NCBI GenBank assembly: GCA_020137815.1
Contig: CM035351.1
Coordinates: 558,001 to 622,000, forward strand
Origin: Hormiphora californensis
Taxonomy: Eukaryota; Animalia; Ctenophora
Length of the DNA: 64,000 nucleotides
Reading direction: 5' to 3'
The position numbers and the translations under genes are program-made. The notes under the pieces are model-generated. The model was given only the letters and a program-made list of their open reading frames with translations, ran no database searches and was not told the DNA's origin. Positions 3,001 through 43,898 of the stretch are shown piece after piece. Numbering within the stretch: position 1 is the first letter of the stretch; every line of letters begins with the position of its first letter.

Positions 3001-5217
3001 CCCCTCCCTTCCTCCCGATCCCCCTCCCTTCCTCCCGATCCCCTCCCTCTCTCCCTCCCTCCCGATCCCCCTTTCTCTCTCCCCTCTCTCCCCTCCACCC
3101 CTCCCTCTCCCTCCCTCTCCCCCCACATGTCTCCAGTCTCCCTCCCTTCCTCCCCCTCACATGTCTCCAGTCTCCCTCCCTTCCTCCCCCCTCCCATGTC
3201 TCCAGTCTCACCTGGTGATCCCATCACTCTCTCCCCTCCCTCCCCTCCCTCCTCCATGTCTCCACCCCTCCCTCTCCCTCCCTTCCTCCCGATCCCCCTC
3301 CCTTCTCCCCCCCCCCATGTCTCACCTGGTGAGGTCCCTGCAATGACCAACTCGCAGATTTTCACATCAGCAGAAAAAGTCAGCTCCATTTTGGTAAACA
3401 TTACGTCAGAGGGCATCGTAACGTTGTCAGTTGATATAGTAAGGGATGTTATAGCCTCACTGCCACCGGCCCCATTGATATAAGAAATCTAGGAGAAGAG
3501 GAGGTATAACAATCTTCATTAAGGGTACGCTAACCAAAAATTTTTTTCGAGTGCAGGGAAATCTCTCACCGTAGGGTTGTAGGCCATACCAAGGAGACCT
3601 CAAATATGCAATTTTAGCCCTTAAGTCGAATTCATATTTTTGCTACAGCTGTTTAAAAAATGTCCTGAAAATACGTTTTTGGCATCTCAAAATTTTTTTT
3701 AAAGATAGGAGCATGAAAATTTGGGGATTTGAAGAGGACATGAAGGTGAATAACCACAAAAAATTTTTTTGCAATCCGAGCTGATTTCCGGTCCTGAGAT
3801 GGATTTCTTTTTTTCCACTTTAACGCCCTATTTGGCAAAGTTCCGAAAACATGTGAAAGCTGTAAATTGGTGAAAAGTTGCGTCTAACGATTATCTAAGT
3901 GGCCATAAATTTTGGGCGTGTCCTTATTTGAGATAAGCTGTACGGAGTTTTTTTTGTGAAAGCCGTCATTTCAGAAATAAATAAATTCCCTGTATCTCAA
4001 AAACGGCTGATCGTAGAGACCTGAGACTATGCTTAAACGATTCAGAAGGTCCGATTTTGGGGGGGTCTTCTGAAAGACATTTTGCTCCTACTTCAACCGT
4101 TTTTGCTGTAATTGCGAAAAACAATAACCCATCTTCGCCATCGTGGATTTTTTGTGATTTTGTTTTTGATGATTATAGGGACCCATATGGACCAAATAGT
4201 GAAGGAATTAGCTTGTTAAACATTTTTCCATAGTTTCGGTCCTTTCTTAGCTAAAATTCCCTAATTACAGGATATTGGAGTTTAGCTTTTGCCCTTTTCA
4301 TAGAATTTGTTTTTCGCAATTACAGCAAAAACGGTTGAAGTAGGAGCAAAATGTCTCTCAGAAGACCCCCCCAAAATCGGACCTTCTGAATCGTTTAAGC
4401 ATAGTCTCAGGTCTCTACGATCAGCCGTTTTTGAGATACAGGGAATTTATTTATTTCTGAAATGACGGCTTTCACAAAAAAAATTCTGTACAGCTTATCT
4501 CAAATAAGGACACGCCCAAAATTTATGGCCACTTAGATAATCGTTAGACGCAACTTTTCACCAATTTACAGCTTTCACATGTTTTCGGAACTTTGCCAAA
4601 TAGGGCGTTAAAGTGGAAAAAAAGAAATCCATCTCAGGACCGGAAATCAGCTCGGATTGCAAAAAAAATTTTTGTGGTTATTCACCTTCATGTCCTCTTC
4701 AAATCCCCAAATTTTCATGCTCCTATCTTTGAAAAAAATTTTTTGAGATGCCAAAAACTTATTTTCAGTTCATTTTTCAAGCAGCTGTAGCAAAAATATG
4801 AATTCGACTTGAGAGCTCAAATTGCATATTTGAGGTCTCCTTGGCATGGCCTACAACCCTACGGTGAGAGATTTCCCTGCACTCGAAAAAAATTTTTGGT
4901 TAGCGTACCCTTAATCTAAGAAATGCATTTCTGTAATTCTACCAAACAGTAATTATAATTTCAATGTAGCATGTCAATAATTTATTGATGTATTACCTTT
5001 GTCAGTAAATCGGGAAGATTGTCCTGGTTACTACTCTCCAGATACACCAATAAGTAGTTCACCCTACAGACACCCCCACTACACAGCTCCACATCACTAA
5101 AATCAAGTCTCAAAGGGCTGGAGCTGGAGATTGTTGTACAGGATGAAGTATCATTGTCTTTCAGTTCACTTTGTAGGTTTGGTACCCATTGGGCGAGGTT
5201 AGTGTTGTAGAGTAGAT
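1..5217 (-). CDS. Adhesion-GPCR-like / cell-surface protein, extracellular part (Cys-rich ephrin-receptor-like repeats, HRM-like motif, helical GAIN-like start); multi-exon, partial at both ends
   Basis: GT-AG exons at about 5217-4997, 3488-3326, 2439-2302, 2117-1827, 1723-1540, 1142-887, 720-605 and 460-108. They encode CxxCxxGTYS/CxxCPxNxYQ repeats (CKECEVGTYSDEAGSVGSCSNCPSNTFT; CSNCPENQYQNKAGQSICENC), an HRM-like YSWPTTAVGVTASVPC...ATRKC and an acidic helical segment. No 7TM region is visible in the window. Confidence 0.6.
1145..1505. repeat. Intronic 48-bp tandem repeat (GAGGAAATGAGAAGGAGGGGTAGGTTAGTTTTAGAAGTCTCTTGTGGC), about 4 near-perfect copies plus degenerate ones
   Basis: Periodicity read directly; the array abuts the acceptor at ~1143. 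Confidence 0.9.
2780..3325. repeat. Intronic pyrimidine-rich compound repeat (CATGTCTCCAGTCTCCC and CCTTCCTCCCGATCCCC units)
   Basis: Read directly; it includes a second copy of the donor CTCACCTGGTGA at ~3207. Confidence 0.85.
3523..4910. mobile_element. Foldback non-autonomous DNA transposon, Kolobok/T2-MITE-like
   Basis: TTAA at 3519-3522 and 4911-4914; termini GGGTACGCTAACC...GGTTAGCGTACCC; ~600-bp inverted arms (3523-4124 / 4307-4910). RR..YY ends with a TTAA TSD fit Kolobok rather than piggyBac. Confidence 0.85.
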
Positions 5218-42400: not shown

Positions 42401-43898
42401 TATCATGACAATCTCGTTTAGACAGGCGCCTCTGTCGTGGTTCTCCAGATACCGCTGAGAGGGGAGAAGGGAGTTAGACGGGGGAGAAGGGGGTTAGCGA
42501 GAGAGAGAAGGGGGTTAGCTAGGGGAGAGAAATAAGAGATGGGAACTGGTTTGAGTGGAATGAAGGAGAGAGGGAGGGGAGTGGAAGGTAGCCTAGTCAT
42601 GAACCATTTATTCCTATTTTATAGAATTATTTAACCAGTTAGTTACACGGGGGGGGGGGGTTACCATGGTTACCCCAGTTACACAGGGTGGTTACCATAG
42701 TTACACACTCACCCTGTTAAATCCCATGTCTAAATAGGGTCGCACCGTCGGTTCCTCGCACCACCGTAATCTGAGAGATATTATCTTCATTACCAAACAC
42801 AATATAATCTCAATTCTTTCGATGAAGTATTTCACAATTCATCCTACTGCCCCAATATCTCAAAAGGCTAAAACTCCCCAATATTATATTACTCACATGG
42901 CAGGGCAGACAGCTAGTGCGATGACACTGTTGAAGGCAGGTTTACTTCTCAATCTCCTCACCATTTGTTCCCCTAACCCCGCTACGGGGACCCTCATATC
43001 AACCACTACTATGTGGTGCCTCTTCTTTTCTAACTGATCCATAGCTGCATCCACAGTGTTAGCCATACTGGCCTTGAAACCACCCTTCCTACAGGCCCAC
43101 TGGAAGGCCTCACTCTGACCATCCTCGCCAGGAAACACCAGTAGAACCTGAGAGAGATGTGTTTGTGTGTGATAACTGGGTTAGCACCTGAGAGAGATGT
43201 GTTTGTGTCATTACTGGGTTAGCACCTGATGGAGATGTGTTTGTGTCATTACTGGGTTAGGGACTGGGTTAGCACCTGATGAGAGATGTGTTTGTGTGAT
43301 TACTGGGTTAGGTACTGGGTTAGCACCTGATGAGAGATGTGTTTGTGTGTGATTACTGGGTTAGGGACTGGGTTAGCACCTGATGGAGATGTGTTTGTGT
43401 CATTACTGGGTTAGGGACTGGGTTAGCACCTGATGAGAGATGTGTTTGTGTGTGATAACTGGGTTAGGGACTGGGTTAGCACCTGATGAGAGATGTGTTT
43501 GTGTGTCATTACTGGGTTAGGGACTGGGTTAGCACCTGATGAGAGATGTGTTTGTGTGTCATTACTGGGTTAGGGACTGGGTTAGCACCTGATGAGAGAT
43601 GTGTTTGTGTGTGATTACTGGGTTAGGGACTGGGTTAGCACCTGATGAGAGATGTGTTTGTGTGGGGGCTGATTCGGAGGTAGAATAGTTCAATTAAAAT
43701 CAACTTACCCTCGATATCTCCTGATTTATTACAATAGGACCTAGTCCGATCTGTCGTTTTTCTGCCTGTGAAAATGAGACGTGAGTTAGAAATAAATTAA
43801 CATTACTAAATTAACATTACTATTTACTGTGTAAAATTTGTTTAGTTTGAACCTAGATAGGGTACAAACTAAACAAGATTGTGTTTGTGTACCTTCAT
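33408..43898 (-). CDS. PDE8: cAMP phosphodiesterase, PDE8-type (REC-PAS-catalytic); start uncertain
   Basis: Exons give IGLGPIV, the REC domain VLLVFPGEDGQSEAFQWAC...EEPTVRPYLDMGFNR|RYLEN...GEV, the PAS domain YVNPAFEKLTGF, DAPIIK, LRSSELY, WDYDIFELEKLSSSR|PLYYLG, and catalytic YHNSTHAADV, HDIDHPGRTN, LESHH, ILATDM, IKCADISN, KSQ. Confidence 0.9.
34420..38900 (-). repeat. ~4.4-kb intronic satellite, unit ~29-36 bp (roughly 140 copies), equal to the PDE8 exon end plus GT donor
   Basis: Minus-strand unit GTTGTCTAGCAGTCG|GTAGGTTTAGGGAAGGG versus the real junction AAGTTGTCTAGTAGTCG|GTAGGTTTAGGGG at 38885/38884. The centre (~34680-37450) is error-rich. Confidence 0.95.
39674..39775. repeat. 21-bp tandem repeat (ATTTAGGGCACAAAACCACA) x5 next to an acceptor
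   Basis: Read directly. Confidence 0.9.
40982..41747. mobile_element. Non-autonomous TIR element with 8-bp TSD, inserted exactly on the PDE8 PAS-exon acceptor
   Basis: TSD CATACTGG at 40974-40981 and 41748-41755; TIR GGGGGT(A)CGTCACCTTTTTTTTTGCCCAC; internal TTTGCCCAC repeats. Confidence 0.82.
43147..43662 (-). repeat. ~53-bp tandem repeat (10 extra copies) of the PDE8 REC-exon acceptor region
   Basis: Unit GCTAACCCAGT(CCCTAACCCAGT)AATCACACACAAACACATCTCTCATCAG|GT versus the real ...ACACATCTCTCTCAG|GTTCTA at 43148/43147. Confidence 0.92.

What the first reader, a model, noticed from the sequence alone, without database searches (positions are those of the whole stretch)
3195..43662. Splice junctions are repeatedly re-copied into their own introns across several genes
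Seen: extra copies of the adjacent splice junction at donors 3326, 15486, 15809, 20253, 28495 and 38885, and at acceptors 16268 (CTCCCCTAG in 3 repeat units), 28603, 40977 and 43147; also an intronic copy of an exon start near 40120. Copy number runs from 1 extra to about 140. Most units include the GT or AG, and many also carry exonic bases; acceptor units can carry a CTAAC branch-like motif. Inference: this is more than chance slippage. It suggests a duplication process focused on exon/intron boundaries (R-loops, nucleosome-edge breaks, templated repair), together with splicing that ignores many near-perfect decoy sites. A selection filter (only duplications that leave one intact junction survive) is the main alternative.
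Basis: partly seen in the sequence, partly recalled or inferred. Interest (0 to 1): 0.88.

Follow-up and report, generated by a model that had tools for sequence, protein, structure and literature searches.

The report
Copied splice junctions in comb-jelly introns
About one splice junction in eight in these comb-jelly genes has a copy inside its own intron, a repeat type already known from lancelets as a "mirage"; the RNA seen uses only the original site, and the copies differ from the real exon only by silent changes, so they likely derive from another allele of the same gene.

Summary
In a ctenophore window (PDE8-like, ERAP1-like, nested cathepsin, receptor-like gene), 11 of 82 junction ends have a copy in their own intron; the other 71 score at background. 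The copies vary between haplotypes. RNA contigs use the exon-proximal site at 5 of 5 junctions tested. This is the known 'mirage' minisatellite class (amphioxus; human F7 intron 7), and this scan has noted it before in other genomes. It is not one process: microhomology-joined tandem duplications, a MITE with an 8-bp target duplication and a 94-bp mobile intron all give the same picture. Junction targeting is not established: enrichment over a survival-filter null is about 2-fold (P 0.002-0.10; 0.31 without collapsing arrays), donor-side only, in a hand-picked window, and detection bias could absorb much of it. New here: all 8 differences between exon ends and their intronic copies are synonymous (8 of 42 synonymous sites, 0 of 136 others), matching allele-to-allele divergence. 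Copy and exon therefore likely come from different alleles, by exchange between homologues at or soon after the duplication.

The parts
28588..29511 (-). Array of 17 copies (45-51 nt) of the putative acceptor, start codon and first codons of the ERAP1-like gene; about 70 nt of unique sequence separates array and real site (exon 28603-28495)
   Evidence: (homologue Met1 at 28599); acceptor use not tested
28435..28506 (-). Donor 28495 duplicated once (39 nt, in frame, no stop); joint falls in a short near-identity between exon and intron
22530..24780 (+). Inverted second copy of ERAP exons beside the N gap, likely an uncollapsed allele; lacks the 20253 duplication and carries both variant letters of the 20253 decoy
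   Evidence: 32 synonymous, 0 non-synonymous differences in 580 nt
20196..20283 (-). Donor 20253 duplicated once (46 nt; 31 exonic, 2 synonymous differences)
16272..16461 (-). Three 58-70-nt units ending at the AG of acceptor 16271, seeded by a 9-nt direct repeat; X5 has one copy of that repeat only
15716..15837 (-). Donor 15809 with two extra copies (43 nt); copy 2 identical to exon, copy 3 with 2 synonymous differences
15327..15529 (-). Donor 15491: 49-nt copy (39 exonic, 2 synonymous differences) behind a 107-nt insert (15373-15479) that is 85% identical to 16818-16926
   Evidence: (one X3 contig spans 15154-15606)
13326..13438 (-). Cathepsin intron 1 (94 nt): dispersed element flanked by a 19-nt direct repeat that supplies both splice sites (Introner-like)
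3206..3332 (-). Predicted donor 3326 with one 14-nt copy 114 nt downstream, inside purine-rich repeats
   Evidence: gene model predicted only
34427..38902 (-). Minisatellite from PDE8 donor 38885 (founder unit 39 nt between two 6-nt microhomologies; about 145 units, 82 with intact donor motif; 1 synonymous difference from exon)
40078..40134 (-). 18-nt copy of the start of PDE8 exon 40100, 39 nt upstream, without its AG; 1 synonymous difference
40975..41891 (-). Acceptor 40977: high-copy MITE (40983-41748) inserted 3 nt into the exon, whose 8-nt target duplication rebuilds the AG, plus two tandem junction copies upstream; the whole block is absent from another haplotype of X3 and from X5
43146..43664 (-). 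Ten 38-53-nt units with CTAAC, pyrimidine tract and AG|GT before PDE8 acceptor 43147; RNA uses the last AG
57844..57938 (+). Second copy of the cathepsin-intron element (98.5% over 68 nt), with its own 14-nt flanking direct repeat

Best explanation
These are 'mirage'-type junction duplications: young local duplications and insertions that vary between haplotypes and likely persist because the exon-proximal splice site stays intact and is the one used in the RNA seen. Shown: copies exist, vary between haplotypes, sit in short introns (median about 160 nt once repeats are collapsed) and are not used in the dominant mRNA at 5 of 5 sites tested. Shown: exon and copy differ only at synonymous positions, at the rate seen between alleles. 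Inferred: most founders are tandem duplications joined at 3-9-nt microhomologies, a few are target duplications of mobile elements, and some founders then expand as ordinary minisatellites. Inferred: copy and functional exon come from different alleles, either because the duplication was made from the homologous chromosome or because allelic conversion replaced the functional exon end soon afterwards while the decoy kept the founder's letters. Inferred: duplications inside exons are purged, those across a junction survive, and first-come donor choice plus exon definition and nonsense-mediated decay keep the mRNA clean.
For: 11 of 82 junction ends duplicated, bimodal scores. No repeat with both copies inside 8,681 exonic bases. 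At least 8 purely intronic events of the same size class. A uniform-placement survival model already expects 3.5-4.9 junction events of 19. Spliced X1 contigs use 15491, 15809, 16271, 40977 and 43147. Haplotype differences: X3 and X5 skip 40984-41856; X5 skips 16317-16452 and 15607-15802; X9 skips 15306-15488. 8 of 8 exon-decoy differences synonymous where 24-28% is expected (P 1e-5 to 4e-5); neutral decay would have left about 13 non-synonymous changes, 0 seen (P 2e-6). Both 20253 decoy letters are present in the second ERAP copy; the 15809 copy-3 letter is present in X5 (15774 C>T). Microhomologies at the joints of 38885, 28495, 16271, 43147. Mixed mechanisms: MITE with 8-nt duplication, mobile intron.
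Against: Observed junction events (9-10 of 19) are about twice the survival-model expectation (P 0.002-0.03 for 9; per-position 8 of 79 against 5.0%, P 0.045, and donors 6 of 40 against 4.4%, P 0.008), so a filter alone may not be enough. Three of about five back-joints seen only in other haplotypes also span junctions. Ten near-equal acceptors with CTAAC at 43147 are not explained by simple AG scanning. Origin from the homologue and later conversion cannot be told apart here. 15809 copy 2 and the short copies are identical to their exon and carry no allele signal.
Confidence: 0.6

Rival explanations
1. Homology-edge model: in a very heterozygous genome, exons are the stretches where alleles pair well and introns differ by large indels. 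Recombinational repair from the homologue would then stall at exon borders and be finished by microhomology joining, so duplications arise preferentially at junctions and are born as mosaics of two alleles.
For: All-synonymous, allele-like exon-decoy differences. Alleles differ by 5.5% in exons and by 136-873-nt indels in introns. About 2-fold excess at junctions, 3.4-fold at donors. Joint regions hold extra bases that look like a different intron allele (20253, 15809, 28603). Further junction-spanning duplications in other haplotypes: X3 42416-42484 and 42151-42628, X9 16217-16271.
Against: No acceptor excess (2-3 of 39 against 5.6%). Window and stretches were chosen for the trait. Intron-internal copies from alleles 12-20% apart are detected only 74-41% of the time, which can mimic the excess. 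Later conversion explains the synonymous signal as well.
Confidence: 0.25
2. Transcription- or splicing-coupled duplication (R-loops, nucleosome-edge breaks, RNA-templated repair) targets junctions.
For: Nominal 2-fold excess. Two acceptor units end at or 2 nt past the AG (16271, 43147).
Against: Exonic share of the units runs from 0 to 39 nt with no fixed register, and units hold exon and intron sequence together, which spliced RNA or a lariat cannot supply. An own-strand or own-RNA template predicts identity to the adjacent exon, whereas 5 copies differ in an allele-like way. Two cases are plainly element insertions.
Confidence: 0.07
3. The decoys are used or selected as splicing regulators (NMD switches, short in-frame extensions).
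For: Decoys score as well as real sites on a window-trained matrix; 28495 (+39 nt) and 3326 (+114 nt) would be in frame (open frames).
Against: No decoy joint in X1 at 5 tested sites. Copies are absent from other haplotypes and from organism B where laid.
Confidence: 0.05
4. Assembly artefacts of noisy long reads.
For: The window has an N gap, an inverted noisy second copy (22530-24780), single-base errors (16272, near 21860) and a noisy array middle. X3 may be the assembly's own sample.
Against: Contigs span the 15491 duplication (15154-15606, 1 difference), the nearest 16271 decoy (16001-16327) and 41719-42089 (0 differences); X5, a different sample, keeps one 16271-type repeat. Read errors would not be purely synonymous. 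Only the copy number of the long arrays stays uncertain.
Confidence: 0.03

Closest known systems
Amphioxus 'mirage' minisatellites (Adh3, globins BflGb6/BflGb9, troponin C, PGBD5). PMC3087553: passages of abstract, section 16 and reference list; PMC3902484: one passage of section 17; the original Adh3 paper was not held and is known only through those accounts
   Same: Tandem copies spanning either exon boundary, units of tens of bases (10-72 nt in Adh3), AG/GT kept in many units, copy number differing between haplotypes, normal splicing, several genes per genome.
   Different: Here in a ctenophore; measured against all junctions of a window; includes element-derived cases; exon-decoy differences are allele-like. 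The globin paper calls the generating mechanism unclear and invokes unequal or intra-strand crossing-over only for length change.
Human junction-spanning VNTRs: F7 intron 7 (37 nt), and 6-16, CBS intron 13, LAMIN B2, PDGF as listed there. PMC1557585: abstract and introduction
   Same: First unit spans a donor; downstream pseudo-donors are identical and mostly silent; 5'-to-3' scanning picks the first site.
   Different: Donor side only; in CBS and 6-16 the nearest pseudo-sites are partly used. Scanning was shown in mammalian cells and is only assumed here.
Introners and splice-neutral transposon insertions. PMC9860276: passages on target duplications; supplement searched
   Same: The cathepsin intron is a dispersed element that takes splice sites from a flanking duplication; the 40977 MITE rebuilds the acceptor from its target duplication.
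   Different: Flanking repeats of 14-19 nt exceed the 3-9 nt described. Ctenophores are not named in that paper's main text; in the stored (cut) supplement I saw them only in genome lists.
Minisatellite birth from short flanking direct repeats and inter-allelic conversion of GC-rich minisatellites (recalled, no call)
   Same: Founder units lie between microhomologies; exchange between alleles leaves mosaic arrays.
   Different: Here the codon positions of a copied exon end give a direct read-out of allele origin at the two-copy stage.

Membership tests
Mirage minisatellites | Tandem unit spans an exon-intron boundary and holds exon sequence | tested here: met
   28495, 20253, 15809, 38885, 28603 clearly; 43147 with 2 exonic nt; 16271 ends at the AG (borderline); 15491 and 40977 interrupted by inserts
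Mirage minisatellites | Units keep AG/GT splice signals | tested here: met
   Decoy scores near or equal to the real sites; the 40100 copy has lost its AG
Mirage minisatellites | Normal splicing at the authentic site | tested here: met
Mirage minisatellites | Copy number differs between haplotypes | tested here: met
   X3, X5 and X9 joints; second ERAP copy lacks the 20253 duplication
Mirage minisatellites | Somatic instability (reported for Adh3) | not testable with these tools
   Only contigs were available
Junction-targeted duplication system (proposed) | Robust excess of junction-spanning over intron-internal events | tested here: inconclusive
   Ratio 1.25-2.3, P 0.002-0.31 by method; donors only; selection and detection bias
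Junction-targeted duplication system (proposed) | One mechanism with unit ends fixed on splice sites | tested here: not met
   0-39 exonic nt; tandem, MITE and mobile-intron cases mixed
Introner (cathepsin intron 1 only) | Intron sequence repeated at unrelated loci | tested here: met
   Second copy at 57858-57925, 98.5%; related copy in L001
Introner (cathepsin intron 1 only) | Precise removal by splicing and absence from orthologues | not tested
   Frame stays open across the joint; no RNA laid, no orthologous gene structure held

The most novel reading that the evidence does not exclude
Mirages are scars of recombination between highly diverged alleles. Strand exchange that starts in conserved exon sequence stalls where the two intron alleles stop matching and is closed by microhomology, leaving one allele's junction followed by the other's. 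This would give the class a generating mechanism, explain its abundance in hyper-polymorphic marine invertebrates, and make decoy codon positions a genome-wide tracer of such events and of one route to intron gain.
Probability: 0.27. Interest if true: 0.7.

Novelty: new member of a known kind. Interest (0 to 1): 0.42.

Why it matters
The class is known but its origin is called unclear in the paper that describes the globin cases (PMC3087553). The synonymous-only signature gives a cheap test on any annotated, heterozygous genome of whether such duplications are copied from the same strand or involve the other allele. The arrays are also natural experiments in splice-site choice (ten near-equal acceptors with branch motifs, 82 intact donors) in an early-branching animal, and a practical trap for annotation and assembly. 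If only the survival filter holds, the finding is an ordinary by-product of a repeat-rich genome with short introns.

Tried and rejected
Two metagenome scans for the mobile-intron motif, meant to collect unbiased ctenophore introns, gave 0 and 1 locus; L001 (1,239 nt) was too little for a control. The homologue search for the receptor-like gene found nothing. A per-position test without collapsing arrays gave ratio 1.25, P 0.31; arrays inflate its background, so it was redone with 9 arrays cut to one unit; both are reported. Dropped before counting: TE interiors, the gap and inverted copy, nested genes, 6 microsatellite runs, cathepsin intron 1. A possible donor repeat at 5370 was left out because its exon phase does not fit. 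The 20521-20600 repeat was counted as intron-internal but is part of a dispersed element. The 28509 difference (also synonymous) was left out of the 8 because it may come from the intron side of the joint. Read depth was not used as copy number (tool caveat). Uncovered bins in contigs were not taken as absence. Ten paper searches showed no report of mirages in ctenophores or of an inter-allelic origin, but the library lacks most subscription papers and the original Adh3 paper, and the PMC9860276 supplement was cut. PMC10078293 (passages) had nothing bearing on this. PMC8527503 (passages) served only as background on ctenophore heterozygosity (3.2%), nested genes and trans-splicing.
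Full report
Setting. The best homologues of the window's genes are from ctenophores: PDE8-like 71% to Mnemiopsis and unnamed-source proteins, ERAP1-like 88% to Bolinopsis over one exon. The species was not determined. On the minus strand lie a PDE8-like gene (43765-33408), an ERAP1-like aminopeptidase (28603-9072, broken by an N gap at 22431-22530 and an inverted second copy), a cathepsin nested in one of its introns, and a receptor-like gene (5217-90; predicted from phase and Pfam hits on some exons). 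tblastn places the exons; all modelled boundaries but the one at the gap are GT/AG.

Is it real? Each of 82 junction ends was compared with its own intron. Eleven score 14-64, the other 71 score 9 or less. Shuffles give 0-1 such repeats. Run X1, labelled 'DNA?', behaves as RNA because its contigs skip introns with CT..AC ends. Contigs drop rare forms, so low decoy use is not excluded. One X3 contig spans 15154-15606 with one difference, and an unspliced X1 contig spans 41719-42089 with none. X3 may be the assembly's own sample; X5 is another sample and X9 another organism. X3 and X5 hold a haplotype without 40984-41856; X5 lacks two of three 16271 units and, on one haplotype, the 15809 copies; X9 lacks the 15491 copy. 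Other haplotypes carry duplications that the window lacks: X3 42416-42484 across acceptor 42454, X3 42151-42628 across a whole exon, X9 16217-16271 (depth about 5) across acceptor 16271, and intron-internal ones near 42481-42530 and 40650-40820.

Not one mechanism. (a) Tandem duplications whose joints fall in short exon-intron near-identities: 6 nt at 38885, about 9 nt at 28495 and 16271, 5 of 6 nt at 43147. (b) A high-copy MITE (40983-41748) inserted 3 nt into an exon; its 8-nt target duplication rebuilds the AG and its C-rich end supplies the pyrimidine tract. (c) A 94-nt cathepsin intron made of a dispersed element between 19-nt direct repeats, with a second copy at 57858 and a relative in L001. 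(d) A 49-nt duplication around a 107-nt insert similar to 16818-16926. The exonic share runs from 0 to 39 nt, with no fixed register.

Are junctions targeted? No repeat has both copies inside the 8,681 exonic bases, as purifying selection predicts. After collapsing repeats, 40 introns have a median of 160 nt, so a 40-nt duplication often crosses a junction by chance. Uniform placement with a survival filter expects 3.5-4.9 junction events among 19; 9-10 are seen (P 0.002-0.03 for 9; event list made by hand). Per position, 8 of 79 junctions are duplicated against 8.1% of intron positions with arrays left in (P 0.31) or 5.0% with arrays collapsed (ratio 2.0, P 0.045; 0.10 without the MITE site; donors 6 of 40, P 0.008; acceptors 2 of 39, P 0.65). 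The window was picked for this trait, and intron-internal copies from diverged alleles are under-detected (96%, 74%, 41% at 6%, 12%, 20% divergence). A twofold excess is possible but not established.

The new observation. All 8 differences between exon ends and their intronic copies are synonymous (20253 x2, 15809 copy 3 x2, 15491 x2, 38885, 40100), where 24-28% is expected: 8 of 42 synonymous sites, 0 of 136 others (Fisher P 6e-6). A freely decaying copy old enough for these changes should carry about 13 non-synonymous ones. The copies are therefore young (under about 2% neutral divergence) yet differ from their exon as alleles do: the two ERAP copies differ at 32 synonymous and 0 non-synonymous sites in 580 nt, and 13 of 14 listed exon variants that I classified from the laid runs gave 12 synonymous and 1 non-synonymous, the last lying in a split codon. 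Both 20253 decoy letters occur in the second ERAP copy, which lacks the duplication. The TCA variant of 15809 copy 3 occurs in X5, and X9's exon end was laid on copy 3. So exon and decoy likely descend from different alleles. Either the duplication was templated from the homologue, or allelic conversion replaced the functional exon end to within 5-15 nt of the junction soon afterwards, which high diversity makes plausible (inference). Own-strand slippage followed by neutral decay is excluded for these five sites.

How splicing copes. For donors the first site is the real one, and first-come scanning is shown for human F7 (PMC1557585, abstract and introduction); here it is assumed. For acceptors the last site is the real one. 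At 43147 ten units carry CTAAC and score 10.9-12.3 against 12.3, so exon definition, or decay of mis-spliced RNA, is likely needed. The nearest decoy would shift the frame or meet a stop at most sites; 28495 and 3326 are in-frame exceptions.

Comparison. Tandem repeats across exon-intron boundaries, with kept splice signals, haplotype length variation and normal splicing, are the amphioxus 'mirages' (PMC3087553, PMC3902484; passages read). My own paper search returned PMC3087553 in the same turn as the scan's earlier notes named the class in urchin, shark, camelid, annelid and other genomes (unchecked notes). Ten searches showed no ctenophore case and no allele-origin analysis, within a library that lacks the original Adh3 paper.

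Verdict. A real, known kind of repeat in a new phylum. The survival filter on mixed local duplications is the best reading (0.6); a bias from recombination at exon homology edges is the interesting rival (0.25). Interest 0.42.

Noticed in passing
window 13328-13421 and 57858-57925; L001 1040-1115: Dispersed element of about 75 nt that forms a whole cathepsin intron, with long (19 and 14 nt) flanking direct repeats in the window; the L001 copy has short inverted ends instead. Candidate Introner family.
   Followed up: partly
window 42151-42628 and 42416-42484 (run X3): Duplications absent from the assembly, covering PDE8 exon 42454-42366 or its acceptor; X3 contigs there carry X5-like synonymous letters that the single X1 RNA contig lacks. 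Could be decoy copies, a popped bubble or an allele lost to decay.
   Followed up: partly
window 22431-24780: N gap followed by a noisy inverted copy of ERAP exons 2-9, likely an uncollapsed haplotype; single-base errors near 21860 and 16272.
   Followed up: partly
window 15693-15846 (run X5): Very high contig depth (up to 4253 against 130-390 nearby) on the 15809 unit, hinting at a large array in that individual while another haplotype lacks the copies; depth is not a copy count.
   Followed up: no
window 11867-13962 (-) and 18321-18893 (+): Two nested genes in ERAP introns: a cathepsin with a K/E-rich tail on the same strand, and a single-exon protein with no Pfam hit on the opposite strand.
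   Followed up: partly
window 5275-5377: 22-nt repeat that begins with a possible exon end and GT at 5370; exon phase does not fit the next exon, so left out.
   Followed up: partly
window 42455-42530 and 39674-39774: Repeats of the branch and pyrimidine region that abut acceptors without including the AG; unit number differs in X5 and X9.
   Followed up: partly
window 3530-4925, 24805-28420, 49240-56400, 30900-32200: Large palindromic or nested MITE-like elements, some inverted against each other.
   Followed up: no
window 15373-15479 and 16818-16926; 10149-10228 and 20518-20594; 60916-61429 and 63416-63929: Further short dispersed elements inside introns (80-85% identical) and a 514-nt near-identical pair around a reverse-transcriptase-like or transposase-like frame at 61668-62558.
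   Followed up: no
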